This document shows positions 11,812 through 64,000 of a DNA stretch of 64,000 nucleotides, piece by piece; position 1 is the stretch's first letter, and every line of letters begins with the position of its first letter. A program made the translations under genes and the position numbers. Source of the stretch: Antedon mediterranea (lineage: Eukaryota; Animalia; Echinodermata); assembly GCF_964355755.1 (NCBI RefSeq), contig NC_092680.1, positions 6,696,001 to 6,760,000 on the forward strand. The letters run 5' to 3'. The notes under the pieces are model-generated. The model worked only from the letters and a program-made list of their open reading frames with translations. It had not been told where the DNA came from and did not search any database.

Positions 11812-11849
11812 CTGCAACCATGGTGGTATTTTTACCTCCATACTGCAAC
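11812..11849. other. P-type excision footprint (TSD CTGCAAC)
   Basis: CTGCAAC-CATGGTGGTATTTTTACCTCCATA-CTGCAAC; arms match the TIR of the 28249 element. Confidence 0.7.
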
Positions 11850-21590: not shown

Positions 21591-22149
21591 GTTATGTAAT
21601 AACTTATGTAATATTTTAAATATATATTTAACATTTGACTACTTCTCATCAATTTGGACCAGTTAGGTAATCTGCCAAATGCAACATTCATGTACAGTAT
21701 GCCCTTTTATTAGTTTTAATCAGTGGTGACTAAGTTGTATATTTATATACAAGGAAAATTATATAATAAAAATGAATAAAAAATCATTTATTTAAACCAA
21801 ATTACTGTATGCCTAACTAGTGCAGTTCAGATTAAATAGGCAAAGGTTAAGCATTTGATAAATTGATGTTTATTTTAGTATGGTATATTTGATGTCTTTG
21901 AGTAAATAAGATAAAGTTGTTTGCCTATCTAAATATTAGCACAGAAAAGACAATATATTATCACTTTGTAAACAATATGTGTTGGTGACATTAAAAAAAA
22001 TGTAACAATATTAATATAAAAAAGTGTAAAGTCAAGTTAATTAACATTACGTCCTGTTTTTGCTGCGAAAAAATAACTGGATTTTACCATATGAATGAAT
22101 TAATTTAGTACCAACTTGAGACCAGTCAAAAATAAATGAGGGAGTGAGA

Positions 22150-23110
22150 AAGAAGGGAATGGGGAAATGGAAGAAAGGAGGAGGGAGGGAAATGGAGGGG
22201 GAAAAGGAAAAGGGAGGGAGAAAAGGAAAAGGGAGGGAAAGGGGAGGAAGGGAAAGAGAGGGGGGAAAGGAAAAGGGAGGGAGAAAAGGAAAAGGGAGGG
22301 AGAAAAGGAAAAGGGAGGGAGAAAAGGAAAAGGGAGGGAAAGGGGAGGGAGGGAAAGAGAGGGGGAAAAGGAAAAGGGAGGGAGAAAAGGAAAAGGGAGG
22401 GAGAAAAGGAAAAGGGAGGGAGAAAAGGAAAAGGGAGGGAAAGGGGAGGGAGGGAAAGAGAGGGAGAAAAGGAAAAGGGAGGGAGAAAAGGAAAAGGGAG
22501 GGAGAAAAGGAAAAGGGAGGGAAAGGGGAGGGAGGGAAAGAGAGGGGGAAAAGGAAAAGGGAGGGAGAAAAGGAAAAGGGAGAGAAAGGGGAGGGAGGGA
22601 AAGAGAGGGGGAAAAGGAAAAGGGAGGGAGAAAAGGAAAAGGGAGGGAAAGCGGAGGGAGGGAAAGGGAGGGAGAAAAGGAAAAGGGAGGGAGAAAAGGA
22701 AAAGGGAGGGAGAAAAGGAAAAGGGAGGGAAAGGGGAGGGAGGGAAAGGGAGAAGGGAGGGAATAGAGGGAAAGGAACTAAGGGAAGGAAAAGAGAGGGA
22801 ATGGAGGGAAAGGGGATGGAGGGAAAAAGAGGGGGAAAAGGAAAAGGGAGGGAAAGGGGAGGGAGGGAAAGGGAGAAGGGAGGGAATAGAGGGAAAGGAA
22901 CTAAGGGAAGGAAAAGAGAGGGAATGGAGGGAAAGGGGATGGAGGGAAAAAGAGGGGGAAAAGGAAAAGGGAGGGAAAGGGGAGGGAGGGAAAGGGAGAA
23001 GGGAGGGAATGGAGGGAAAGGGACTAAGGGAAGGAAAAGAGAGGGAATGGAGGGAAAGGGAGGGGATGGAAAGGAAGAAGGGAGGGAAAGAATACTAGAT
23101 GGAGAGGAAG
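22150..23110. repeat. ~950-bp polypurine/polypyrimidine compound minisatellite
   Basis: Almost only A/G; units GGGAGGGAGAAAAGGAAAA and GGGAAAGGGGAGGGAGGGAAAG, with a ~120-bp higher-order repeat in the right part. Confidence 0.97.
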
Positions 23111-24270
23111 GAGTAAAAAGTGGAAGAGGTGTTATGGCTTTCAATGGGATGGATTTAAAAATACAGTAGACACAGTAGTCATTTTCATGAATAAACTACT
23201 AAGTGTTGTACTTTTAAAAGAGGAAGGCATATGGCATAAAGACTGTGTTGACAACAGATAACTGACAGACTATGCTTCAGATCAGATTACAGTTTTCTAT
23301 AACCCCAATCTCGTTTCCGTTTCGTACATATATCAACTGAGAGTCATTCTAGTCCTATTCAACAACGTGAAACAATGATAGAAAGTACAAAGTCCAAATG
23401 TCAGACGTGAAGATTTGAATTACAAAAATATTGTCATTGTTATCCACGTAATCCATCAGGGTTTGTTGCTATTAACATGGAGGAATTACTCCTCCTATAA
23501 AACAACAACTTTTCATAATGTTTATGGTTACTGATTTACTGAATTAGTCTAAACGACCCAATTTGCTGATGGGCTATATTAACTTCAATCTCTTCACACT
23601 GATAACTAATGATATAATATGTTATCGCCATACAATTACATCTTATCAACATGGCTGTTCAATCTCTTATACAAATATTAAGCTTATCATCAGCAGAATG
23701 CATCTGAAATTATAATTTTGGTCTAACATGTGATATTTACATTGTAAATAACCTGAGTGACTGTATACACAGTAGGCAAACAATTAATCACTATACAAAT
23801 ACCGGTTTGGAACTACAAAATAAATGACATTTTCAGTAGTGTACAGAGTAAACTGTTGATATAGATTAGAACAAACATGTTGAAATCTAATGATATTTAT
23901 TGGTAAACACTGTACCATCATAACTAAGCTAACAATGTTATTATACTAGCCTCTATTTTCTGATATATTACTGTTTGTTTGTTGATGATCGTTTACATTT
24001 TAATCTATTATATCATGCATTTGTTTGTATAGAGAGGATTTTTATGGCCTTATTCACTTTTGTACTGCTCACAGACAAATAGGTGTATACTTTATTCTCG
24101 TTGTTTGTCATAAAAGCCTACCAGATGTTGTTAATTGTTTAGTATATGATGGATCTCATGGTTTAGTATGACCAACATAATAATGGTGTTTTGGTTTTGT
24201 ATTTTTCACATTTTAACTTTTTCATCAATTATACGGGGATGTGTATTGAACAGTGAGATTCGCTACATAA

Positions 24271-27605: not shown

Positions 27606-28209
27606 CATTTCAAATGAATGTTAGACTACAGTAATTGACATTGTCGTTCGCTACAGACGTCGGCCAAAATACTATACTATTGAACACTGTGAAATAAATA
27701 TCCTCCATTCAGTTTTGTCTAAAGCTCCTCATTTGAAATTCAGAACCTGAAACTAGCACCTTTTTTTTTTTGACCTAATGTTATATAAACTTTGCAATGC
27801 CAGAAGGCTTGATTTACGACTTAAATGTATTTCATTGAAACCTAACTAAATGTGATGATAGATGATACAGTCCTCAGTACATAAATTAACATAGCATACA
27901 AATAATGAATGTTTGTGAATTGAATAGGGACTATATTTTATGGGTTTAATAGATCATTCAGGCTTCCAATGAATTTAAACATTCTGCCTATTCAATGAAT
28001 ACAAAACATTCATTATTATTCGAAAGTAAACTTTTATTCAATTAATCTGCAAGTTGAATCACATGTTCAATACTAGGTAAGAGGCTATATCGTTTTAAAA
28101 AAAAAGCAGGCTTGGATTTTGATTGTGGAGTACATATAGGCAGCACACTATAGGCTGATTTTAAAAGAAAAAAAGTCACCAGCCTTGTGTTGCAGACAAT
28201 TCCCATGCA

Positions 28210-28248
28210 GTAAAACCATGGAGGTATTTTATACCTCCATGGTAAAAC
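28210..28248. other. P-type excision footprint abutting the P element (TSD GTAAAAC)
   Basis: GTAAAAC-CATGGAGGTATTTTATACCTCCATG-GTAAAAC. Confidence 0.8.
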
Positions 28249-29057
28249 CATGGAGGTATAAAAAAGAAGGAGATTCAACTAGCTAATAGAGATTAAAATG
28301 CTGTGTGCTATATGAACTATGACTGACTTCCTCGGACGCTGATTGGCTCGCTTAGATGAGTTCAAAAAAGCCGCCTTCCGCTCTGCCACGCGGGACGTCG
28401 CCTTTCATCGTTGTCAGTGCAGCCGGTCGTTCATCGCTTGTTACAAGGCCCCTTAGCATTTAAGTCGCCCTGAACATGTATTTTAAACACTTTTTTGGTT
28501 GTATTAGCTTCTAGAGAGGGCTTGTGGGGTCAGAGTTTAACATATCCGAAACCATATTGAATTTAGAAAGCCATTACATTTTATTAGAAGAAAATCGAGT
28601 AATATTTACCAAAATAACCGTAAGTTTAAGTTTTTATGGTTTTTATATTATATATCGATAACACGATAACCTCGGAAAATGATTTTTTTTAGTAAATATT
28701 ATTTAATAATTTAGGTTTCAAACCGTGAAAATCCCGACCGTGTACACGCGTGTATATTTTCTCTACATGCATTGCAACATAGGGCTTTTTTCTCTCGGCG
28801 AGTCGCTTGTTGGTTCATCAAGTGTGACGTAATCAACGGGTTAGGAAGATTATGCTGGGGCTAGGCCTAGAGTATCCTTGTTTGATATTATGATTCGTGA
28901 ACCTATTCAACAATGTTATTAATATAAATTATAGTTATAGGCTAATTTATATTATAATTAATACAATGGTGAACCTAATTAATGGTTGTATTGTTAAAAA
29001 CTATATTAAAGCAAATGTTAATACAGTACAATTAATGTTTATTGTGTTCCTCTACAG

Positions 29058-29368
29058 TTAACTCTTTTGTAAAACTTACAAAAGGAATTGCTTGCTACTG
29101 ATGGTGTGGACTATGTGTTGAGTGAAAAACTAAACCAAGATCCTCTTGAGGAATACTTTAGCAAACAGAGAGGATGTGGAGGAAGAAATGAAAACCCAAC
29201 AGTTCATCAATTCCAACATAATGCATTGACACTCTACAAGTTGCAGGAGCCAGAAGTGTAACTGGTTCAATCCACTCCAACACCAGGAAGTCGCGTTTTA
29301 GCATAGACAGTACCCCATTCCCAAAAAGAACGAAAACCATAAATAATATTAATAAAGTACAAATATAA
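29058..29368 (+). pseudogene. Last exon of a P-element/THAP9-like transposase, frameshifted
   Basis: After the ctacag acceptor: YVLSEKLNQDPLEEYFSKQRGCGGRNENPT, the P/THAP9 QDxLExxF..R..GG.N.NP motif around the last catalytic Glu. Two frameshifts; upstream exons absent. Confidence 0.85.
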
Positions 29369-29456
29369 TAATAATTTCATGAACACCTTTTATGTATTTA
29401 CTGAACTGTATAGAAAATATTTATATTGTGAATAAATTGGAAATTCTTTCTTTAAG

Positions 29457-31093
29457 TTAGTCATTATTTTTAAGTTTCTTTCTTAAGGGTTTTTCACCCT
29501 TCTTTCCGACTGATGCATCTTTCTTTTTTCTTTCCATCATATATACGGTGGTAAAAGCCTTGCATCTGATGTCTATATAACATCCAATAACTTTGTTAAA
29601 TAAAGTAGACACTACTACCTCATTAACATTATCCCCAATCAACCGTTCCCATGCTAATTTAATGACAGGCGAATCAAGGGCTGAAGTAAGTTTGTCCTTT
29701 AAATTTAAACCACAAAGTTCTGTAATTTTTGTGGAGGACAAAATGGGTTTTACCTCGCATTCCAGCCACCTAAAAAATAAAAATGAATCATTATTTATTT
29801 GAAATAGGCCTCCTCTGTTAATTTTTGTAATCCAGTCTTTACTATAATCTAAAAATGACATTTTATCATTGTTGTCTTCAATTTCTAATTTCCTTAATAC
29901 ATCAATAGATAAATTAACTAGATTGTTATTTGGAAATCTTCTCTAAAAGCGTAATAATTTATGCGGAATATAGCCAGCCATGTATCTTAATGTTTGTTGC
30001 TCTTCCTTGGTTACCTCTACCTGTGGCGGTTCATTTGCAGCAGCATTCTCATACGGCCCAATTTGCCTTAACAACAACTCTTCTACAATTGCCTCGCTTG
30101 CCATTTGGAATAAAAAATTTGCAGCAATATCACAGTCAACTAAACCTAAAAATTGATTTGAGTTTTCATTTATGCGAAAAGTTTGAAAGTTTCTACACGC
30201 TGCGTCTAACCCTTCTGATGCAGTTCTTTTAGTGTTCGCTACAGTTGCTGTCTCCCATAAAGTATTGACAAGTTTGTTTGCAACATCCTGAATATCTTTT
30301 GACCGCAACTCGACCACTGCATTGTTTATTGCTGTTGCCATCTTTGGATTTAACTGCAGCATAGGGTCTTCCAAGAACTTTGTTAAATGAGTGATTAACA
30401 ATTTCCAAAGAATCAGCTAATGCATTTTCAAGTAGATATTGGCTCTTCCATTTTATCGGCTTCTTTTTTGCAGCTGTGAATTATTTTAAAATAAATCATA
30501 AATTAAAATGTCTTTCCCATAAAATTAAAAAGTTAAATTCAATCTGACCATCCCTAATATTTTAATTTCCTGTGCAAAATACAATGTAGTGGGCGACGTA
30601 GGGCTGAAATATCTATTCCCTGTATTTCGGTAATTTTAAATTTAATTATTTGGAAAATGTGTCAACAGCAAAATCCATGCATGAATTATAAAATGTACAG
30701 TAGTAGTAAATAGCTTTATTTTCTATTAGAGTAATTAATTAGTTAGGCCTATATATACCATCTATGCTCATTAATACCATGGAGGTATACCTCCATGTTA
30801 ATACTCACCTTTTTCCGGTTTATTGTTAGTAGTTGATTCGCTGGGCCTACTAGCGTTCGTATAATTGCTTGGCCCACTTCGCACTTCCACGTTTCTTCGG
30901 CGGCTAGGCCTGAACTCGCGCAATTCGTATGGAACCATCTGACTTCGCAATCTTTACCGTTGCAGGCTATTGTCTCTTCCGTCGATGGACAGTTACATAT
31001 ACAGATATTTTTCACTTTTTCGGTGCCTACTTCGGTATTTATTTCTTCAAATTCTGCTAATAATTCTTTTGTTAACAACTCATCAAACTCCAT
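29457..31093 (-). pseudogene. Second, convergent gene in the P element: PHD finger plus P-transposase C-terminal-like domain
   Basis: Exon 31093-30809 (donor gtgagt) encodes CIC..IACNGKDCEVRWFHTNC..WKCEVG, an ING-type PHD with the last Cys changed to Gly. ORFs 30401-29943 and 29861-29457 are in one frame split by a single TAG and contain EEQQTLRYMAGYIPHKL and WITKINRGGLF. Confidence 0.7.
30771..30804. other. P-type excision footprint inside the P element (TSD TTAATAC)
   Basis: TTAATAC-CATGGAGGTATACCTCCATG-TTAATAC. Confidence 0.8.
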
Positions 31094-33430
31094 CACATCA
31101 ATTTTTGTAGAATAAAAGAATACAGTGTTGCTTTTTTGCACTGCCGGCCGCGCGCGCTAGCTACTCGACTCACACACAACGCTCATGTGCTCGAGGTCAA
31201 GCGGTTTGCTTCCGGTTTTACAATTAATTATACGACCTTTTCGTGACATATTGACCTTGTACGCCACGCAGTGCTTATGTGCGATACCGTTTATAATTAC
31301 TCCCTTATCTGTTAAACATTCGGCGGCTGCAATGAATACATCAAAGGAGACAAGCTAGTTGAATCTCCTTCTTTTTTATACCTCCATGGTAAAACTAATA
31401 CTGAATGGCATTATGTGATTCAAAAATCAGTAGTGATTGCAATATCTGCAGTAAAGGAAAAAATGTTTAACATTAAATGAGAAAAACATTCAAAAACCAA
31501 CAGAGGGCAGTACACATCATTTTAAGTTAGGAAATGGACTTGGGAGAAAATTTAAGCACATTCTCAAGAAGATGCTTGGTGCCGTCTTTTGTTCCGATGC
31601 CTTTGATTGAATGTTCATTGCCATTCACGGAATGTAGAGTTTAATATGCTGCTTTATTTTTGTCTTCTTTGTACAAATATGACATACCACCAGTTGTATA
31701 TTTTAATAAATTTTTAAACACCACAGACAGCAAACAGAAATTGTTTCTCTGTCACGAAACGCATCAGAATTTGCACCTTTTATTGACATAGACAGGAAAA
31801 TGAACAGATGATGTTTGAGAATATTATAACAGGTGAGGTGGTGTAAGCTGTGTAGACAACTGTTGGCAATCTACGTAAACATTAAGTTGGTTACACCCAG
31901 TTTACTATAAAACCAAATCAACTGAAGGAATTATGAAATAATCAAAGCTGGTTTGTCAACTTGTAACAGTCACCTTGATATTGAAAAAAAAAACTGTTTT
32001 TTTTTTTTGGTAAGAAAACAATTTCTTTTCAATAACATTTCCAAAGTAGGGTATTCTAAACAAACACCATTTCTGAAATTCTGTTTTTCTTTTCTATCTA
32101 GATATTAGCAGCATAAAAAGTGATGGTAAACTACTTTAAAAATAGATTAAAAAACGATTTTTGCTGATTTTATGGGGGGGGGGGGGGGGGGAAGCCCTAT
32201 ATCTGCTGAGTAGCAAAACATCATTTTTAAATGGAATACATTCACACAAACAAACAGGAGGGGTGGGTATGTTATTGACTGACATTGAAATAGTAGTACT
32301 ATAGAATTCCACATCCAATTAAAACAAAAATCCTCTTTATGAACTACTACTGCTAGGTACCAACTGCAAGCACAATGTATTTTAAACCAGAACCACCAAC
32401 AGTCACGTAGAAAGCTTAAAAGCCCAATGCAGTCAGCTATGAGGTATCAATCCTGCCACAAATCAATTTATATTGGAATGTCTTTTAAGACATTTATGAG
32501 AAATCAGTTTCCTGCTTTCTCAAACATAATTCATACATTTGACGAATACATTTTCTACATTTCCATTGGATTTCTTACAAAAGACATTTCAGAATGTCTT
32601 TCTGAATGTTATAAATCAAGTGCTATTTTTACAACATAGGTGTAAACAAACCTATTATTTATTCAGAATAGCAATTTTGTTATTATACTTAAGAAGTAGT
32701 GCTGTTTTACTTTAAGAGTAAAATGATGTACGTTACTGTACCTGAACATACCATAAAAGCCCCTAGGGGTGCAATATCAAGCAGAATGTCTCAGTTACAT
32801 TTTTCTCTCTTGCATATATTTCCAATTTCAAATCAAATTTAGGTTTAAAGAATTTTACAAGGCAGACATTTAGGCTTTAAGTCACATTTGATAGGCATAA
32901 TAATTGACTCACATTCATAAGATGTCATCATTGAAAATTGTATCAGAGTGGGCTTAAAAATTTCCCAGGATATCTCCGGATAATACAGCAATTAATCATT
33001 CCTTTATAACTAGTTTTTAATGACTGTTAGTCTAGATTTTGCAGCTTTTGAAGTCGAAATTGACCCGGCAAATTAAAGGGTACAAATCATTTCTTAGTGA
33101 GTGAACATTATATAAAAGAAAGAGTTTTATGAGAATTCTATGCAAATCATGCAACTTTCGCGCACAAATTCAAATTGTTATCTGGTTCCGTTCAGTTTTT
33201 GTGCAACTGTTGATTAGATTTGAGGATATTCTGGTTCTTTTGTCCCGCTAGCATGTTCCGTGGTTATCCACATTCTTCCAATTAAAAGACAGTGACTTAA
33301 TTAATCAATTTTTGAACCTGGAAAATGTCCTCCGGCACTACAATTCAATTACGTACAAACCTGAAGCACTCTAGATTGATTGGCCCAGAGGAGCTAACTA
33401 AATAGAAGTTCATTTAAATCAAATATGTTA

Positions 33431-43844: not shown

Positions 43845-45785
43845 ATTTTTATCTTTTATTTATTCAAATTCTCACAAAAATGTACAAACAAAGCAAGAAA
43901 AAGACAAAACATATAAAAAGAACAGAGTACATTCAGTGAAGGATGGGACCAACAGGTGGTAAACACCTCTAGGACGGTCCAATCCCAAATTGCACAATGA
44001 GTAAAAAAGTTAAAAACATTATAATAAATATTTTAATATAATAGTAATATATAAATTTGTATAATTTAGGATAAAACTAAGTTGGTCGACATTTACAGCA
44101 GCGACAACAGGACACCCATGTGCACATATTGCCAGTTTCATACGTATTGGTAAATAAGTCGTTGAAATATTTCTTAGCCCCTAGCTTAAACCTGTAAGAC
44201 GTAGGTGCTTTTCTAGTATCTTGGTCTAACTGATTCCACATGGGAACAATGCGTTGGAAATACATCAATTTATGTGATTCAGTATGACCAATTCTAACAG
44301 TAAGATTGAAGTCATCTACAGATGATCTTGTTGCACGACCATTATTGTCTCCGGAAAATGTAATGAAATCTTTGATATTAAGATCATTCATGTTAAGCAA
44401 GCATTGATGGAAGAAGTTAACATCCATATATTCTCTTTTATATGAAAGGGGCAGTAAATTGAGCAATGTTAAACGTTCTTTGTAATCTTGATCGGGGTAA
44501 TTCAAAATGTATTTGGTAGCTTTACGCTGTACACTTTCCAAACGTTGCATGTTACATTTGGATGTGCCACTCCACAATGAGCTAGCATACTCAAGGTCGG
44601 TTCTAATCATGGAGGTGAATAGTGTTATAGTAATACTGATAGGGGAATTGTAACCCATAGCCCGTTTAATCATACCAAGTTTGCAATTACATTTAGAGAC
44701 AACTTTGGTGACGTGCTCATTCCATTTCAGATGATTAGATATTTCGATCCCCAGATCATTGATTCAATCAGATCTAGCGAGAGAAATACCATTCATCCTG
44801 TAGTCATATATTACAGGGTTTCGTTTTCTAGTAATAGATATAATTTGACATTTAGATGGATTAAAACATAGATCCCATGTTTTGCTCCATTTGTACAACG
44901 AATTGATATCTTCTTGTAAAAGATTACAATCGGTCACTTGATTAATAGATTTCAAGCCTTTAGCATCGTCTGCAAAAAGAGCAATTGTTGCATTCTTGGT
45001 AGACGTGGGCAAGTCGTTTATGTATAATAAGAAGAGTAGGGGACCTAGGATTGAACCTTGTGGCACCCCTGAAATCACAGGTAGCCAATCGGAAAAACGA
45101 TCCTTCGATAACAACCCTTTGCGTTCTGTTGGAAAGATAGGCCGTAAACCAATGATGGCGATTACCACTAATACCGTATGATTTTAATTTGTGCAGAAGT
45201 AAATGGTGGGACACACTGTCAAACGCTTTAGAAAAATCTAGATATACGAGGTCGACCTGACCAGCACTTACTTACTGTGTGAAAAATGGTTAGTAATTGT
45301 GAAACAGTAGAACGGCCCTTAATGAATCCGTGTTGTAGGTTATACAAATAATTCTTTAAGTGCGGAAAAATAGCGTTGTAAATTAATCTTTCGAAAACTT
45401 TGTTTGAGATACATAGTAAGGATATGGGTCTGTAATTAGAGGCTTTGTGTTTGTCGCCCTTTTTAAATACGGGAACCACGTTAGCTTTAAGCCAAATATC
45501 AGGCAGTTGTCCAGTTGACATTGACATTTTGAAAATGTGACACAGTGGTGGACTGAGTTGTTTAGCGCACTCTTTAAGGACCCGTGGTGAGATCTCGTCA
45601 AGACCGACAGCCTTAGAAGTATCCAAGCTCGAAAGAATTTCACAAACATCAGTTTTATTAATAATAATGTTACTTAGATCAGGCATATTTTCTTTTGTGT
45701 TGCTGGCTTTGGGTAGAACATTGTAAATCTTTGGTGTACTGAACACCGAATAAAAATAGTCGTTAAATACTTGACAAACATTGTA
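43845..45785 (-). mobile_element. 5'-truncated CR1-clade LINE (RT and 3' UTR), frameshifted, in SMG5 intron 3
   Basis: RT motifs PVFKKGD, NYRPISLL, QHGF, YLDFSKAFD, GVPQGSILGPLLF and LFADD across three frames; C-terminal WVSCCRCCKC; (AATAAA)-like tail near 43850. Confidence 0.92.
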
Positions 45786-45815
45786 AAAAATAATCATTAT
45801 TAGTTGAAATTATAC

Positions 45816-46294: not shown

Positions 46295-46983
46295 CTAATT
46301 CAGTAATAAACAAATTAAAAAAACAGAATTAATCATTGAAGTACTGATCATTATGGAGGTATTTGTACTGATCATTATGGAGGTATTTATACCTCCATTT
46401 ATTACGAACAACCAAAATAACTCAGATAGGCCTATACCCATGCAAGTTGTGTTGTAAATAACATTAGGCCTAGGCCTATATTTTTTTCATATTTGTGTCA
46501 TCTCGATTTTTTGTCTAGGCCCTAGGAGGCCTTACCTAGACAAAGATACGGTACTGTATCCTAACTTCCGTTTGCTAAAAGTATGGTAAAATTGCATTAC
46601 GTCATAATCAGCCAATGGGGTGCTGGTATGTGTATGTGTCATCGTCTAGGACTTTGATCAACCGCTTAACATTTTCTTTATGCTTCATTTATCGCTATTA
46701 TCGCCGTCTGTGACAAAACTAAATGTAGCCTACGTCTGTTATTATTGAAAAGCCAAAACATGTTGATTTATTAAATTATATGAGTTTGTGTAGGGAAAGC
46801 GGTGCCAGGCTGGGGCCAGCTACTGTCTAAATCATAGTATTTTAACATTGAATTACAATTCCTTTACTTCTAATTTGGTTATCAACAATATCAGATTATA
46901 ATACTACTACTGTATGTTGTATAATGAAATAATATTTGTGATTAAGTGCATGTTTTAAATCAACCACATGAACTTGATCTATA

Positions 46984-57469: not shown

Positions 57470-60400
57470 TTACTGTTGATCATCTTCATTCTCTGATGCA
57501 GATTCATCGTCTGATGATACAGTCATATCATCCTCCTCGTCATCATCATCTGAATCTGAATCTATGTCTTTATTCTCTGGAATTAATGAATCTGGAAGCT
57601 GAGCCCCTTCATGCCAAATAGGTTGATAAAGACCACTTTGAAAGTCCCAGCCATTTGAAATAATTGGATGTTGTTGGATTGTTGTCTGGTCAGCATCTGC
57701 CCACATTTTAGCAATGAAAGATACACGTTTAATATGGCAATTAAGTTCAGCTTCGCATGGTGGAATGACACTTGCATTAATGCCTTTCAGTTTCTCAAGT
57801 GGATTCTTTGACGTTGCACTTGGACTATAGCCTCGTTCAAATATGCTGTACCGGAATTCATTCAGTGTGCCTTTATATGAGTTTTTGGCACCATATACTT
57901 GAGCGGTAAACGTTTGAAGAGTAGTTTGTGCATCTCCACTTAATGAACCTTCACATGTAATTTCATTGAATGCTTTTTGGGCTTCAATATTCTTCAACAG
58001 TTTAGCAAATGGTTGCACTTTGCCTTTCCGTACAAATGAAGAGGTATAATCACACCCAGTAAAAGCATGAAATGCTGGTAGTGATAAACATAACTGCAAA
58101 CCAAGTATCTGATGTATACTCGACAAACAGATGTATCTACGACTATTTTTAGCAGATATACCAACATCCATCCACAATTTAGAGGCAAACTTATTGCAAT
58201 GATACAACATTATAACTGCTATGTCGGTGTCCGATGCTCGTATGACTATATCTCCTCTCAGACCAATACTTTCAATAAACTTAGCATGCAGACATATTTT
58301 GGTATCTGCTTCTTCATGGTTGCTTCTGAGGGCTGCAACATCTTCTCGAGTAACTACACCATCAAAAACTCGAAAAAGGTAGCACTCTCCAGGTACATCA
58401 AGAAACACCTTTTTATCCCGGAATATGTCAGCATAAGTCTGGTCCTGCCATTCTTTTGCGAGAAATTGAGGCAATTGAGATTTAAATGATCTGGATTTCA
58501 AGGCATCATTGATATGTTTTGGTCTAACTTGTTCTGGTCCTGTTATTAGATACTCTCTTTCTTCAACTCCTCTTCTACCTCTCTCAAAATCTTTCAGTGA
58601 TGGTTGTGGATAATCATCAAAGAGCAGGTGGACTTCCTTGGTTTGTGTGTTTGCTGATAAAGCCTGAATCAACACACTTCTGGCTAGTCCTCCATAGTTT
58701 GGTGGAATGTATGGTGGTAACGTATGTAATAAGAATTGGCCATCTATTATGTAGGCACATGGATATTGAGGATTAATATTCCCATCTTTCACTTTTGACT
58801 CAAGTACACCAAGCAGTGAACTTTTTGGTGTTTTGGTCATAGTTCCATCTGCATTACAAAGAGAAAGCGGAACAGGCGTCAAGGGGTAGCTAAATATATA
58901 TGGCAGGTCAAGGTTGCGTTTGGTCGCTAACAACACTAGTCGACCCATTAGATCTCTGCTACACTTGAGCTCTGCTATGCGTTTATCTTTTGTGCTCTTG
59001 TTGCTGGCACAATCATATGCAAATGTCTTTATTGGCGTCTTCTTGATTCTTTGCTCAAATCTGCTAGGATCTTTGACACAAGACTGTACAAACTCCTGAT
59101 GTCTAGACTGTCCGCATTGAGGTATGTTCAGTAAGCTTTCCTTTACCACAGTACTGACGGCTTTGCCTGTGTTGATATTAAATAGTTTAGTAGATGTGTC
59201 TATCACTCTATCAAAAGGATTATGTGTATCCTCTATGTGTTTTATTACAGCAGTTAGATCCCGGTTGTCACGATGTATTCGTGCAGGTTTAATCTCTGAA
59301 GCAATGTCGTCTTTTGAAAGCAGTCCTGCCATTTCATGAACAATGCTAACAAATGACGCACGGGTGGATCTTGTAATCATCCATCGTAGACGAGCACCAT
59401 AGTTGTTAGTTGCAGATGTTATTCCACTAAGTCTAGAAGCAGCATCGGCATTTACTGTTTGCTCAAGTGTCAGATCTACTGGTATTCGACTAAAAGCATT
59501 GTCTGTACGCCGGATACTGAATGCACCTTTCTCTAATATACTCCGGAGTCCAGGATGCGAGTTATCAATATTGGCGAGATCGAGTTGGAATTTTGTTAAC
59601 CATCGTGCATAGTTGATGTGATTTGTGGCAAAAAACAGACCAATAATGGGAGTAAGAGAGTAGATGTAAAGACTGATGTTATTGGTTCGGATTGACCTCT
59701 CTAGGTTATGATAGCTACGGATATAGTCAATGTACATAAGCCAAAATTGAGCAGTGAATCCATGTGCTCCCGAACGTGTCAAATCTGCAAACTGTTTGTA
59801 TGCTGTACATGCATGACTAAATGTAGCGGAGTTGATGGCTTCTTCATGACTTGGTTCATTGGTTAATTCCGTTAGCTGTTCTCTGTTGCTATAGTCTTTC
59901 ATGAATTCCCGAAAATGTAGAATTTCAAAAGCAAGAGCCAATATGGGGTGTAAACGTTTACATCTATTGAAATGTTTTCCACTTAGAAAACCGTTAAGTG
60001 ACCCGGGAGCAAGCACATCAGTATTGGTAAGCATATCAGGACCTCCTGAATTAGAAAGAAGCTTTCCAACAGCTTTAAAAAAGGCCATTTCCACATGGAA
60101 AGCACCTAACATAATAAATATGTCATCAAACCTTGGTTTTTCTGTTGCTTGTATTTGCATAGCTGGCTTTGCTGCATTTAAATCGTAAGTCACGATTCCG
60201 AATTTCTGCTCACATTCATTAGTGCATCTTTGGGTTATCAAGAGTGTCTCTTGTATGACATCTAACCTAGTGATTGGTTGTTGCAAATTTGGCATATATA
60301 GAACTGCCTGTTTTGGCAAATTGTCTGAATATGATGCAGCATTGTAACCGACCCACATAGGAATGTAATTCTCTTTCAAGGCATGTTTTAACACCCAAAG

Positions 60401-62122
60401 GAAGTCCATATTCCATGCCACTGCGCTGACATCAGGGAGACTAGAAATATCTGTAACATTGTAGTTAAATTCGGTCATTTTTGGTTTCTTACGATATGGC
60501 TCTAGAGCAGACATCTGTGGCGCTAGTGATCGCTTTCTACCTTTCTGTTGTTTGTTAGTTACACAGGAATGGCCTTCTGTGACATTTGTTTCATTAGTTT
60601 CTTGCTCGTCTGATATATTTTGGTATAGTATTCCCATTGTGTCATGAAGTGTGTTGGCACCCGAAAGTGTCTGAGTCATTTCATCAAAATTATCAAATGC
60701 AAGTCCCATTGGTATGTGTTTAACGGTTCCAATGGGGCATGCCAGCATCCTCTCTTGTATTTTCTCAGCCGTATTTGTTTCAAGTTCTTCAAGGCAGTTG
60801 TAATTTAGGCTATGTCCAAACCTATTTAGAACCTGTACTAACTTTTTGCTACCTGTAACAGTCTTTACAGCCATACCCAATGCCACTTGCTTTGCTGGTT
60901 TCACTTTACCTCTTTTGACAATGAAAAGTGCATCATCACAAGATGATTTAACACGTCGCTTCACCTGCTCAGAACACTTAGTTTGTTCTGCTCCACTGTA
61001 CAATGCAGTGAAAAATGTGGATAACAACTTGGGGGGAAAAGCATCCCCTTCCTTTAAATCATCCAGGGTAGGATTTTCAGGAAGGTCTTTCTTTTGAATG
61101 CCAAATATGTTTTTACGAAGTAGAAAAGCTGCCTTGGTAACAATGTGTTCATCATCCGATGCATAGTCATATGCAACACGTACAGATTTATCGGCAGTGT
61201 CAGAATTGTAAATAATAATTCCCAGTTTCTTTGTTTCTGTGTGGAAACGTAGTTTCTTACCAAATTTGTTTATCAAATTACGCATAAGACTCTGTGCACT
61301 ATTTATGGGTGTTGTTTCAGAAAGTGTACACATATCAGTATATCTGGCATACACTGATGTCAAAAGCTCAGGTCTTTTGTTGCAGATGATTGCTTTTTCT
61401 ACATAGTTATGGATATTTTGTATCATGGTTAGTTTGGATGACTCATTTGAATCCAATTCGCTCTGACTTGAAACCCTTTTGGCCGACATCAAATATGCAC
61501 TTTTACAAGAGTGGTGATATTTTGCTTCTTTGGCTACTAAGTCAATACCACTTATTTTGGATAACAGTTTGGAATCATTTAAAGCAGAAGCTGCCTCATG
61601 GATGCTCTGACCAGCTTCAATTGTCTCACAACTACCAGCTACTTCATACTGACCTTTCTTGCGTTTTCTTGCATTCCCACAAAATATACATTGAGGAGGG
61701 AAAATACCAGATGTTGATGACAGCGACCTATCGCTTTCGGGTGTAGCTGAACGTAAATGTGGACTCTCAGCAGTGCTTCCTAACTTGTGTGTATGTGGTG
61801 CCTTATCCGTGGATGCAGTTTCTGACGGTATAGCAGTAAAATTCTTGTAACACATCACATGATAACCTTCATTTTCGTCAGGAGATGACGGTAATTTTTG
61901 CACAATGTTGTGATATACAGATTCCACAAAATTACACTTTTTACGTCTACTTTCTGCTGCCAGTAAAACCGCTTTCCAATGTTTATCACTGAATGAGAGG
62001 ATATTTCCCCACTTTGACTTTTGCTTGGGCTTTTCAATGTGGAGAATGCAAACGTTGGACGATTTCATCTGAGTTTCAGCACTACTTTCAAGAGTCTGAT
62101 CTGGGTCCGTAAAGCTTTCCAT
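57470..62122 (-). CDS. Academ transposase fused to an XPG/FEN1-like nuclease domain, 1550 aa, uninterrupted
   Basis: N-terminal CIFC..EAKYHHSC; core motifs AFDNFD, VTYD, LGAFH and DLTLEQTVN; C-terminal XPG-type motifs IIDG, HEEAD, SDTD and FTGCDY.SF..KGK; acidic tail. Confidence 0.9.
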   Translation of the reverse strand: MESFTDPDQTLESSAETQMKSSNVCILHIEKPKQKSKWGNILSFSDKHWKAVLLAAESRRKKCNFVESVYHNIVQKLPSSPDENEGYHVMCYKNFTAIPSETASTDKAPHTHKLGSTAESPHLRSATPESDRSLSSTSGIFPPQCIFCGNARKRKKGQYEVAGSCETIEAGQSIHEAASALNDSKLLSKISGIDLVAKEAKYHHSCKSAYLMSAKRVSSQSELDSNESSKLTMIQNIHNYVEKAIICNKRPELLTSVYARYTDMCTLSETTPINSAQSLMRNLINKFGKKLRFHTETKKLGIIIYNSDTADKSVRVAYDYASDDEHIVTKAAFLLRKNIFGIQKKDLPENPTLDDLKEGDAFPPKLLSTFFTALYSGAEQTKCSEQVKRRVKSSCDDALFIVKRGKVKPAKQVALGMAVKTVTGSKKLVQVLNRFGHSLNYNCLEELETNTAEKIQERMLACPIGTVKHIPMGLAFDNFDEMTQTLSGANTLHDTMGILYQNISDEQETNETNVTEGHSCVTNKQQKGRKRSLAPQMSALEPYRKKPKMTEFNYNVTDISSLPDVSAVAWNMDFLWVLKHALKENYIPMWVGYNAASYSDNLPKQAVLYMPNLQQPITRLDVIQETLLITQRCTNECEQKFGIVTYDLNAAKPAMQIQATEKPRFDDIFIMLGAFHVEMAFFKAVGKLLSNSGGPDMLTNTDVLAPGSLNGFLSGKHFNRCKRLHPILALAFEILHFREFMKDYSNREQLTELTNEPSHEEAINSATFSHACTAYKQFADLTRSGAHGFTAQFWLMYIDYIRSYHNLERSIRTNNISLYIYSLTPIIGLFFATNHINYARWLTKFQLDLANIDNSHPGLRSILEKGAFSIRRTDNAFSRIPVDLTLEQTVNADAASRLSGITSATNNYGARLRWMITRSTRASFVSIVHEMAGLLSKDDIASEIKPARIHRDNRDLTAVIKHIEDTHNPFDRVIDTSTKLFNINTGKAVSTVVKESLLNIPQCGQSRHQEFVQSCVKDPSRFEQRIKKTPIKTFAYDCASNKSTKDKRIAELKCSRDLMGRLVLLATKRNLDLPYIFSYPLTPVPLSLCNADGTMTKTPKSSLLGVLESKVKDGNINPQYPCAYIIDGQFLLHTLPPYIPPNYGGLARSVLIQALSANTQTKEVHLLFDDYPQPSLKDFERGRRGVEEREYLITGPEQVRPKHINDALKSRSFKSQLPQFLAKEWQDQTYADIFRDKKVFLDVPGECYLFRVFDGVVTREDVAALRSNHEEADTKICLHAKFIESIGLRGDIVIRASDTDIAVIMLYHCNKFASKLWMDVGISAKNSRRYICLSSIHQILGLQLCLSLPAFHAFTGCDYTSSFVRKGKVQPFAKLLKNIEAQKAFNEITCEGSLSGDAQTTLQTFTAQVYGAKNSYKGTLNEFRYSIFERGYSPSATSKNPLEKLKGINASVIPPCEAELNCHIKRVSFIAKMWADADQTTIQQHPIISNGWDFQSGLYQPIWHEGAQLPDSLIPENKDIDSDSDDDDEEDDMTVSSDDESASENEDDQQ

Positions 62123-64000
62123 TACAATTTGATGTCTTCACGCACAACATAAACATATAGCAATTATAATACTGAGAAAAGATGATCCTGTTGTGTTAAC
62201 TCTACTAATCTATACTATAGAGTAAAATTAGCAAATGGTAATGTTGGTTCAATGATTTTGAAATAATGGAATAGCACATGGGGATGGAATTCCTGCTGGA
62301 CACCCAAGCCTAGATAGATGTATCCATGGAGACAAATTCCTGTATCTGATATATTCCAGAGACATTCACTTAAACAATAAGATAAAATATGATGATGCAA
62401 AGGACCTGTCCTAATTCCAGACAGCCCACAAATCACATTTGGTTTTGGATCTGAATATATCAGAGAATACTCTATTTGATATTTTACCCATTCTTAAGTG
62501 AACTAATGTTCTTTGAGTATGTTCATAATTTCTCAAAATGTTAATTAAATGTCTAATTAGCACTAATTAAGTGCATTCTTAAGTTAATTTAGCACAGGAA
62601 TGGTCACTTAAGAATTATGGATCTTGGTTTCTGATAGGTCAGAGAACATTTTAGAATTGGTGTGGTCGATATTCTAATTAAATTTGAATTTTAATTATTT
62701 TAACCTTTGACCCATTCTTAAGTGGATTTGGCCCCGGATTTCAAACTTAAGAATGATGAATCCTTAATCAGTATGTTCATAAGTATATGTCATGTGAATT
62801 TCGTTGATGTACTCAAAATGCTAATTAAATGTCTAATTAGCACTAATTAAGTGCGTTCTTAAGTTAATTTAGCACAGGAATGGTCACATAAGAATTATGG
62901 ATCTTGGTTCCTGATAGGTCAGAGAACATTTTAGAATTGGTTTGGTCGATGTACTCGATATGCTAATTAAATTTGAATTTTAATTATTTTAACCTTTGAC
63001 CCATTCTTAAGTGGATTTGGCCCCGGATTTCAAACTTAAGAATGATGAATCCTTAATCAGTATGTTCATAAGTATATGTCATGTGAATTTCGTTGATGTA
63101 CTCAAAATGCTAATTAAATGTCTAATTACTGTAGCACTAATTAAGTGCGTTCTTAAGTTAATTTAGCACAGGAATGGTCACTTAAGAATTATGGATCTTG
63201 ATTCCTGATAGTTAGGAGAACATTTTAGGATTGGTTTGATCGATGTACTCGATATGCTAATTAAATTCAATTTTAGGGGTCATTTGGGTGGTTCCCCCCT
63301 AAAATTGAACAGGACCCGTCACTTAAGAATTGCCATTTCTGGGTCACATAGACCATATCTACACACTCCACACCTCAAACCTTTTGTACTCAAATTGCTA
63401 ATTAAAACCTTCTGGGCTCCCAGACTATTTCTTTGGGCTATGTCCAAGAACGCTTGGGTGCACACGGAACAACAACTGCGATACGATTCTTTCTACAATA
63501 ATAGGCCTAGGATTCTAGGTCAATTCACGTGATTGCCTTCGCGCACTCTTCTTCACACACACGTCCACTATGCAAAATGTGTCGAGGCTAATCGACAGCT
63601 AGGCAAAACATTAAACTAAGTAGTAATTGGACATAGCCCAAAGACACAAGTCACACACACCCACACAGCTACTACTAGAATATACAGGGGTTTAGAGACT
63701 AGTAATTAGGCCTAATAGTATCAATAGAAACTATAATTTTAACACGTAATTCTTTAGTAATAAACTATATTAAAAACACCATAAACTAAAGGCTGATTAT
63801 TTCGACAATCCACACAAAACTCCGCTATTCTATTATGAAATCAGCGGAGATAGGCCTAGAATCGTACCGCACTTCTTGTTGCTATACGCTTGGGTGCACA
63901 CGGAACAAGAAAATTTAACTGATGAATTATTCATGTTTATTCTGTGACGTTTCATGATGGGGTCCCCAACTTATGTACGAAAAAAAAAATCGCTGCCGGG

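What the first reader, a model, noticed from the sequence alone, without database searches (positions are those of the whole stretch)
28249..31388. Two-gene P element with an apparently split transposase: catalytic core on +, PHD finger plus C-terminal-like domain on -
Seen: inside perfect 36-bp TIRs, the plus-strand transposase exon stops about 75 codons after the QDPLEEYF catalytic motif. The convergent minus-strand gene carries an ING-like PHD finger followed by EEQQTLRYMAGYIPHKL...WITKINRGGLF. Established: in Drosophila P transposase and THAP9, a YxAGY...GGL domain follows the RNase H core in the same polypeptide, and PHD fingers of this type read histone H3 tails. Inference: this lineage may supply the transposase C-terminal domain as a separate subunit fused to a chromatin reader, loosely analogous to RAG1/RAG2-PHD in convergent RAG-like transposons. 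That would couple insertion to chromatin state. This copy is decayed (one in-frame TAG, frameshifts, last PHD Cys to Gly). I cannot tell whether this architecture is already in Repbase.
Basis: partly seen in the sequence, partly recalled or inferred. Interest (0 to 1): 0.85.

Follow-up and report, generated by a model that had tools for sequence, protein, structure and literature searches.

The report
Split P transposase with RAG-like layout
This is a broken copy of a P-type jumping gene whose cutting enzyme lacks its usual tail domain; a second, facing gene encodes that tail fused to a histone-reader-type finger and likely supplies it as a separate subunit, a layout that parallels the two-protein RAG recombinase.

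Summary
Perfect 36-bp TIRs and a 7-bp TSD bound a non-autonomous element that keeps only the last transposase exon plus a convergent, damaged second gene.

Antedon mediterranea encodes near-identical intact proteins: an 869-aa transposase ending 74 aa after QDPLE, and a 443-aa PHD protein. Their models match Drosophila P transposase 128-569 (Z 37.7) and its C-terminal domain 617-734 (Z 12.0, rmsd 2.3 A), so the split falls in the fly enzyme's disordered linker.

None of 120 related transposases carries the domain. In 24 of 80 metagenome loci it lies on the opposite strand, never the same one, and the two genes co-diverge (Mantel rho 0.71).

The PHD is a minority accessory (9 of 149) and its methyl-lysine cage is degenerate in Antedon, so chromatin targeting is untested. 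Complex prediction gave weak support only.

This scan noted split P elements before on other DNA (four notes), with no note of the PHD/RAG1-zinc form. Ten literature searches found no description; Repbase could not be checked.

The parts
28242..28248 (.). left 7-bp target-site duplication (GTAAAAC), shared with the abutting footprint
   Evidence: exact match to 31389-31395 at 7 bp only; empty site with one copy in organism B, joint 28209->31389
28249..28284 (+). left terminal inverted repeat, 36 bp, starts CATG
28285..28619 (+). probable 5' untranslated first exon of the transposase gene (start not mapped)
   Evidence: GT donor at 28620; joint 28619->29058 in run X3 only; no match to P0005 protein
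28620..29057 (+). chimeric intron containing the internal deletion junction (about 28974-28980) that removed most of the transposase gene
   Evidence: GT..AG ends; contigs diverge behind 28974 and before 28980 (table 7)
29058..29368 (+). last transposase exon: RNase H C-terminal part with QDPLEEYF (third catalytic residue, E800 of P0005) and the conserved ~70-aa tail; frameshifts near 29080 and 29232
   Evidence: PF21789; 91-98% identical to P0005 776-869; indels vs other copies
29457..30473 (-). partner gene exon 2: helical domain (P0002 ~110-245) plus homolog of the P transposase C-terminal domain (P0002 255-421) and basic tail; frameshift near 30372, TAG at 29943-29945, 1-nt loss near 29458
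   Evidence: 96% identical to P0002 128-441; fold match to 6p5a_B; TAC instead of TAG in X3 and X6
30474..30808 (-). partner gene intron (GT..AG on minus strand)
   Evidence: joint 30473->30809 in X3; coincides with the junction in the P0002 model
30778..30797 (.). 20-nt end-to-end footprint of the same termini inside the intron, 7-bp TSD TTAATAC
30809..31093 (-). partner gene coding exon 1: acidic N-terminus and ING-type PHD finger (about 31003-30878), last Cys removed by a 25-nt deletion
   Evidence: 96% identical to P0002 1-72 and 81-104; ING PHD matches
31353..31388 (-). right terminal inverted repeat, 36 bp
31389..31395 (.). right 7-bp target-site duplication
28217..28241 (.). 25-nt end-to-end footprint abutting the element, flanked by the same 7-bp TSD

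Best explanation
This is an internally deleted, non-autonomous copy of a two-gene P-superfamily transposon whose transposase ends without the C-terminal domain, and whose convergent second gene encodes that domain fused to a PHD finger and likely supplies it in trans as a second subunit of the transpososome. Shown: ends and TSD; the two proteins; the split at the linker of the fly enzyme; opposite-strand linkage across many lineages; co-divergence and purifying selection; a RAG1 N-terminal-type zinc domain in place of THAP in this subclade. Inferred: the catalytic subunit (DDE and GTP-binding residues conserved) cuts with P-type long staggered ends, and the partner docks between RNase H and GTP-binding domains to contact transposon-end and target DNA as the fly domain does. 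Speculative: the partner's variable N-terminal module (PHD here, C2H2 in other branches) biases target choice or chromatin loading.
For: Fold: P0002 255-421 vs 6p5a_B 617-734, Z 12.0, rmsd 2.3, 118 of 118 aligned, rank 1 of 48,161 chains, next Z 6.8. A profile also aligns YIAGY and HGGL of 6p5a_B (E 0.038). P0005 324-858 vs 6p5a_A 128-569, Z 37.7, rmsd 4.1.

Absence in cis: 0 of 120 transposases hit the domain profile (best E 0.12); 110 of 115 with the motif end 60-95 aa after it. 0 of 149 partner relatives (133-535 aa) have a P transposase Pfam domain.

Linkage: 24 of 80 loci have the domain on the minus strand, 0 of 80 on the plus strand; 15 of 18 loci with at least 1.5 kb downstream have it. 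In 51 of 51 loci with a complete tail an in-frame stop follows within 40 codons. Both genes lie inside TIRs in L030 and L075.

Co-divergence: Mantel rho 0.71, p 1e-4, 18 non-redundant pairs; pN well below pS in 9 of 9 informative pairs.

Chemistry: all 8 GTP-site residues listed in PMC7776569 align to identical residues in P0005. Footprints keep 12-17 and 16-19 nt of the ends, near the 17-nt stagger of P.

Binding: complex prediction passed weakly, score 0.58 vs best control 0.29, runs agree in at least 56% of contacts, partner pLDDT only 42-45. At 0.60 or under, 5 of 78 solved pairs and all 4 passing mismatches lie, and a like structure (6P5A) is solved, so the pass may come from memory.
Against: No biochemical or genetic test of binding or requirement. 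Three of 18 loci with at least 1.5 kb downstream lack a domain hit (L009, L041, L052); L041 keeps only the partner's N-terminal exon inside intact TIRs. L003 has the partner upstream and divergent. The A. mediterranea, Acanthaster and Diadema pairs are linked only by neighbouring accessions or equal contig lengths, not by DNA that I read. No TSD was found at the ends of L030 or L075. The sequence-level match to the fly domain is weak and the Z of 12 is for a helical domain. PHD in only 9 of 149 relatives, with a degenerate cage (Ile/Thr/Trp) in Antedon. About 1,000 weaker hits and 134 were not listed and could include fused forms.
Confidence: 0.72

Rival explanations
1. The partner descends from the C-terminal domain but now acts as a regulator or optional accessory (repressor, nuclear or chromatin loader); the truncated transposase is self-sufficient.
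For: The partner has a large extra helical domain (110-245) with no clear fold match (best Z 6.5) and swappable PHD/C2H2 modules. The non-autonomous copy keeps the partner and drops the transposase. Second proteins of other superfamilies can be accessory (recalled).
Against: The exact complementarity at the linker (569/617), the conserved YxAGY, W, RGGL and basic end, and the fly domain's many DNA contacts (PMC7776569) fit a structural role; co-divergence.
Confidence: 0.2
2. The two genes give one fused protein by trans-splicing between opposite-strand transcripts, so the enzyme is conventional.
For: Opposite-strand trans-splicing is known in insects (mod(mdg4), recalled). The stop codons are only 88 nt apart and one X3 contig covers both last exons.
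Against: The catalytic Glu and the stop lie in one exon; an in-frame stop follows the tail in 51 of 51 loci; the partner has its own start, N-terminal modules and a cis splice joint.
Confidence: 0.04
3. The minus-strand gene is an unrelated captured or nested gene and the resemblance to the P C-terminal domain is a chance helical arrangement.
For: The profile E-value to 6p5a_B is only 0.038; Z under about 13 can be common for helical folds (note).
Against: Rank 1 of 48,161 with full coverage and motif identity; rank 1 also by Foldseek; always antisense to a P transposase that lacks the domain; congruent trees.
Confidence: 0.04

Closest known systems
Drosophila melanogaster P element and transposase (PDB 6P5A/6PE2; PMC7776569, passages read)
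   Same: CA..TG TIRs; HTH, split RNase H with GTP-binding insertion, GTP-site residues; C-terminal domain fold; internally deleted copies; short end-to-end footprints
   Different: One 6-domain polypeptide with THAP and an 8-bp TSD, versus two convergent genes split at linker 570-616, a RAG1-type N-terminal zinc domain, a 7-bp TSD, and a partner with an extra helical domain and PHD
Vertebrate THAP9 and zebrafish Pdre (PMC10983969, passages read)
   Same: P-type DDE and GTP-binding core; Pdre has TIRs and deleted copies
   Different: Described as a single protein with THAP and C-terminal domain in cis, 8-bp TSD
RAG1/RAG2 and RAG-like (TransibSU, ProtoRAG) transposons; Chapaev (PMC4411706, PMC8355894, PMC8374863, passages read)
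   Same: Two-protein element; homologous N-terminal zinc (Chapa-type) domain on the catalytic subunit (E 4.5e-7 to PDB 21wb_A); PHD finger on the second protein; facing genes (RAG orientation recalled)
   Different: Catalytic core is P-type, not Transib-type (Z 37.7 vs 14 or less); the partner is a piece of the transposase itself, not a kelch propeller; its PHD is ING-type; TSD 7 bp vs 5 bp. Analogy plus one shared domain, not membership
N-RAG-TP of Aplysia (known to me only through passages in PMC8355894 and PMC8374863)
   Same: A marine invertebrate transposon carrying a RAG1 N-terminal-like sequence
ING-family PHD fingers (PDB 1x4i, 2g6q, 3c6w)
   Same: C4HC3 spacing, fold (rmsd about 2.1 A) and the cage Trp
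   Different: Cage Tyr and Met are Ile and Thr in P0002; H3K4me3 binding cannot be assumed

Membership tests
P superfamily | TIRs beginning CA and ending TG | tested here: met
   36-bp perfect TIR starting CATG; CATG/CATAG ends in L030, L041, L075. The CA..TG rule for the superfamily is recalled; Pdre2 ends fit it
P superfamily | 7-8 bp target-site duplication (8 bp in Drosophila and zebrafish; 7 bp allowed, recalled) | tested here: met
   exact 7-bp TSD at 4 of 5 sites in the window; empty site in organism B
P superfamily | Split RNase H DDE core with GTP-binding insertion domain | tested here: met
   in the full-length relative P0005: PF21787/21788/21789 above cut-off, Z 37.7 to 6p5a_A, GTP-site residues identical; the window keeps only the last exon
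Canonical P / THAP9 architecture | [quoted passage not shown] | tested here: not met
   P0005 has no THAP hit; its N-terminus hits zf-AD below cut-off. Subclade relatives hit RAG1_imp_bd above cut-off (P0006; 4 of 21). THAP occurs in other split-clade members (8 of 120 by PF05485)
Canonical P / THAP9 architecture | C-terminal domain in the same polypeptide as the catalytic core | tested here: not met
   0 of 120 proteins, 0 of 80 loci
P superfamily | GTP requirement and 17-nt staggered cleavage | not testable with these tools
   only indirect: conserved residues and footprints retaining 12-19 nt of each end
RAG-like / Transib / Chapaev | Transib-type catalytic core | tested here: not met
   core matches P at Z 37.7, Transib at 14.0 and RAG1 at 12.2 or less
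RAG-like / Transib / Chapaev | Chapa / RAG1 N-terminal zinc domain | tested here: met
   profile of six locus N-termini hits RAG1 N-terminal chain 21wb_A, E 4.5e-7, with CRxC and HP..C..C aligned; P0005 shares the motif
RAG-like / Transib / Chapaev | RAG2-like kelch propeller partner; 5-bp TSD | tested here: not met
   partner model is helical beyond the PHD and matches the P C-terminal domain; TSD is 7 bp
ING-type H3K4me3-reading PHD | C4HC3 zinc ligands | tested here: met
   complete in P0002; last Cys deleted in the window copy
ING-type H3K4me3-reading PHD | Tyr/Met/Trp methyl-lysine cage (PMC4225485 passage) | tested here: not met
   Ile/Thr/Trp in P0002; full aromatic/Met/Trp in 3 of 10 (P0014, P0018, L063), Met/Trp in 2 more; positions read from the ING3 alignment

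The most novel reading that the evidence does not exclude
A branch of P elements independently arrived at the RAG1/RAG2 design. Its catalytic subunit carries the RAG1 N-terminal zinc domain instead of THAP. An obligatory second subunit, cut from the transposase's own target-DNA-contacting domain and encoded by a facing gene, carries a PHD finger that reads histone H3 tails and steers insertion, and C2H2 fingers in sister branches are swappable targeting heads on the same subunit. This branch may also share the RAG1 N-terminal domain with the Transib/Chapaev lineage by exchange in marine invertebrates.
Probability: 0.3. Interest if true: 0.9.

Novelty: new variant of a known kind. Interest (0 to 1): 0.74.

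Why it matters
The P papers I read (passages) describe single-polypeptide enzymes. A natural split at the one disordered linker makes the role of the C-terminal domain directly testable by leaving one protein out. It offers a two-component switch and a free N-terminus on the target-contacting subunit for retargeting a P-type vector. It also explains a large family of uncharacterised 200-535 aa proteins (up to 1,152 clusters hit) in echinoderms, hemichordates, amphioxus, molluscs and cnidarians as transposon subunits. Finding the RAG1 N-terminal zinc domain on a P-type core contradicts the 2015 statement that it occurs in no other known elements (PMC4411706) and bears on where the RAG1 N-terminus came from. 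The pairing with a PHD-bearing partner gives an independent case for testing whether transposons recruit histone readers to choose targets.

Tried and rejected
No genome assembly is held, so copies could not be collected or a family consensus made. The partner alignment had no stretch conserved enough for a locus scan; loci were fetched with the transposase alignment instead, so they are chosen by the transposase, not by the partner. Viral contigs: 0 of 325 candidate stretches encoded a relative. ESM Atlas gave no usable hit for either partner domain; this shows nothing. Pfam has no family for the partner's helical or C-terminal-like domains. No listed run is on record as RNA. TIR/TSD searches in L063, L079, L020, L010, L015 and L026 gave only chance-level repeats; L058 has an imperfect 36-nt pair without TSD. 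dS was saturated in most pairs, so no dN/dS ratio is claimed. No fused P transposase sequence was in hand, so the trees are unrooted and the direction (fission or fusion) is undecided. The Kojima review was not held; Repbase and Dfam cannot be searched. Rejected: Cys-to-Gly substitution in the PHD (it is a deletion); catalytic core present in this copy; PHD as a defining part of split P elements; the short plus-strand ORFs in 28285-28619 as a transposase start (no match to P0005).
Full report
WHAT IS IN THE WINDOW. The element runs 28249-31388 between perfect 36-bp inverted repeats that begin CATG. It is flanked by an exact 7-bp duplication; 6, 8 and 9 bp do not fit. A contig of organism B joins 28209 to 31389 with 7 shared letters, which is the empty site. 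The plus strand holds one recognisable coding exon, 29058-29368, with the RNase H C-terminal motif (PF21789). The minus strand holds a two-exon gene, 31093-30809 and 30473-29457. No assembly is held. The closest named proteins are from the feather star Antedon mediterranea at 91-98% identity, so the host is probably an Antedon or close crinoid (inference).

INTACT RELATIVES. P0002 (443 aa) and P0003 (445 aa) match the minus gene and have a complete PHD. P0005 (869 aa) matches the plus exon and is recorded under two accessions, XP_071945700.1 and XP_071952173.1, each next in number to a partner accession, XP_071945706.1 and XP_071952175.1; P0005 and P0003 share the same longest contig length. 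That suggests two full two-gene copies, but I could not read their DNA. Against these proteins the window copy keeps only transposase residues 776-869. Contigs leave the window sequence behind 28974 and before 28980, marking an internal deletion and showing that longer copies exist. The partner has a 25-nt deletion that removes the last PHD Cys and shifts the frame, a frameshift near 30372 and a TAG at 29943; X3 and X6 read TAC there.

THE SPLIT. AlphaFold models were built from alignments of 142 partners (mean pLDDT 84) and 111 transposases (87.5). The partner's residues 255-421 match chain B of the Drosophila strand-transfer complex, residues 617-734, at Z 12.0 and rmsd 2.3 A over all 118 residues. 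This is the only Z of 8 or more among 48,161 chains; the next is 6.8. Foldseek also ranks it first, at E 0.15, and a sequence profile aligns its YIAGY and HGGL motifs at E 0.038. The transposase's 324-858 match chain A, 128-569, at Z 37.7. [quoted passage not shown] The break therefore falls where a cut would cost least.

IT IS A LINEAGE, NOT AN ACCIDENT. Of 254 transposase hits the best 120 were listed (lengths 477-1521, which would admit fused forms). None hits the domain profile. Of these 120, 115 have the QDxxE motif; 110 of the 115 end 60-95 residues later (range 33-132) and none has YxAGY in the tail. Of 1,152 partner hits the best 150 were listed; the 149 besides the query are 133-535 aa and none has a P transposase Pfam domain. 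Named ones come from crinoids, a sea star, sea urchins, a hemichordate, amphioxus, a mussel and an anemone (10 proteins looked up). Among 80 metagenome loci fetched by the transposase (best 80 of 349 confirmed, partial scan), 24 carry the domain, all on the opposite strand: 23 downstream and convergent, 1 (L003) upstream and divergent; 0 carry it on the same strand. Many contigs are too short to tell. With at least 1.5 kb downstream the count is 15 of 18; of the three misses, L041 retains the partner's first exon inside its TIRs. L030 and L075 have both genes inside CAT-starting TIRs, though without matching TSDs. For 23 pairs (20 loci plus 3 pairs assigned by accession or contig length; L003, L011, L032 and L048 left out) pairwise distances correlate at rho 0.70, and at 0.71 for 18 non-redundant pairs (p 1e-4); the two trees share their well-supported groups. 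This shows long co-inheritance, not binding. Synonymous differences far exceed non-synonymous ones in 9 of 10 pairs, the tenth being near-identical (saturated, qualitative only).

THE RAG-LIKE SUBCLADE. P0005 has no THAP domain. It and 24 other transposases of the 120 start with a CRxC...HP..C..C zinc motif (profile built from 22 of them). Five score above the cut-off of RAG1_imp_bd (P0006; 4 of 21). A profile of six such N-termini from loci hits the RAG1 N-terminal chain 21wb_A at E 4.5e-7; the whole-protein fold searches did not list that chain. PMC4411706 (passages) calls this the Chapa domain and states that it is not encoded by other known elements. All four pairs with a PHD partner (Antedon, Acanthaster, Diadema, L063) have this N-terminus and group together in both trees (support 0.996 and 0.926); being one clade, they count as one event. 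L063 shows the full layout in DNA: zinc-domain transposase, convergent partner, upstream PHD exon. THAP-type members such as L075 and L064 have partners with C2H2-like motifs instead.

THE PHD. It is ING-type by sequence and fold. It is found in 9 of 149 partner relatives and C2H2 motifs in 10; both are lower bounds because many models may lack exon 1. Using the cage residues named in PMC4225485 (passage) and the ING3 alignment, 3 of 10 PHDs keep aromatic/Met/Trp, 2 keep Met/Trp, and the Antedon protein has Ile/Thr/Trp. Histone reading is therefore plausible for some members and doubtful for this one.

ACTIVITY TRACES. The window has four 20-25 nt end-to-end footprints, three with exact 7-bp duplications, and none arose in 30 shuffles. 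Other contigs show joints that keep 12-17 nt of the left end and 16-19 nt of the right. These fit repair after a roughly 17-nt staggered cut as in Drosophila (inference). All eight GTP-site residues listed there have identical counterparts in P0005; D444, D548 and E800 align with fly D230, D303 and E531 (their catalytic role is recalled). Run X3, whose RNA status is only a guess, alone shows both GT..AG joints, 28619->29058 and 30473->30809, the second matching the P0002 model; the shorter sides are only 30 and 28 letters. This suggests that both genes of the deleted subfamily are transcribed and spliced; it does not prove it.

BINDING. The complex prediction for transposase 335-869 with partner 108-443 gave weak support: 0.58 against a best control of 0.29, runs agreeing in at least 56% of contacts, partner pLDDT 42-45, alignments not used. 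At that level 5 of 78 solved pairs and all 4 passing mismatches lie, and the fly structure may be remembered. It barely moves my odds.

NOVELTY. Ten full-text searches (for architecture and background; 79 for cage residues) returned listings with no title or abstract start describing a two-gene P element. I read passages only of PMC7776569, PMC10983969, PMC4411706, PMC8355894, PMC8374863 and PMC4225485; no supplements were opened. Repbase Reports, Dfam and most subscription papers are outside the library, and a second protein may be annotated there. This scan's notes hold four earlier reports of split P elements in other genomes, seen after my reading was formed; searches for the PHD or RAG1-zinc form returned nothing. 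Verdict: a real new variant of the P superfamily. Architecture about 0.95, obligatory subunit about 0.72, histone-guided targeting about 0.3.

Noticed in passing
window 11819-11842 and 46376-46399: Two more end-to-end footprints of the same termini (the first with an exact 7-bp TSD CTGCAAC, the second decayed): four in 64 kb points to heavy past activity of this family in the genome.
   Followed up: partly
window 28210-28248: The element sits directly beside a footprint and shares its TSD (three copies of GTAAAAC), as if it re-inserted at a previous site; another footprint lies inside the element's own intron.
   Followed up: partly
window 29368-29457: Only 88 nt separate the two stop codons and one X3 contig spans both last exons, so the transcripts may overlap antisense at their 3' ends (possible small-RNA control).
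   Followed up: no
window 57470-62137 (-): An uninterrupted 1555-aa ORF that looks like a large DNA-transposon protein with a C-terminal nuclease-like motif (resemblance recalled, not tested).
   Followed up: no
window 44077-45809 (-): Fragments of a LINE-like reverse transcriptase broken by stops (resemblance recalled).
   Followed up: no
window 22047-23195: About 1.1 kb purine-rich simple repeat with strong GC and AT skew, open in several frames.
   Followed up: no
L003:4371-8620: Partner gene lies upstream and divergent from the transposase, the only such case in 24 loci.
   Followed up: partly
L041:338-5657 and L075:503-4408: Related THAP-type elements with CATAG TIRs; L041 lost the partner's C-terminal part, L075 lost the transposase tail: independent internal deletions.
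   Followed up: partly
P0002 residues 110-245; P0005 residues 105-260: A conserved helical domain in the partner with no clear fold match (best Z 6.5), and a confidently modelled alpha/beta and Cys-rich region in the transposase that was not searched alone.
   Followed up: no
P0016; P0175: A. mediterranea has a second, distant PHD-partner family (about 35% identical). The Diadema transposase model has about 450 extra N-terminal residues with a B-box-like hit, possibly a gene-model fusion.
   Followed up: no
window 29607-29613 (run X6, record 21): The organism B copy has about 470 extra bases inserted in the partner's C-terminal domain.
   Followed up: no
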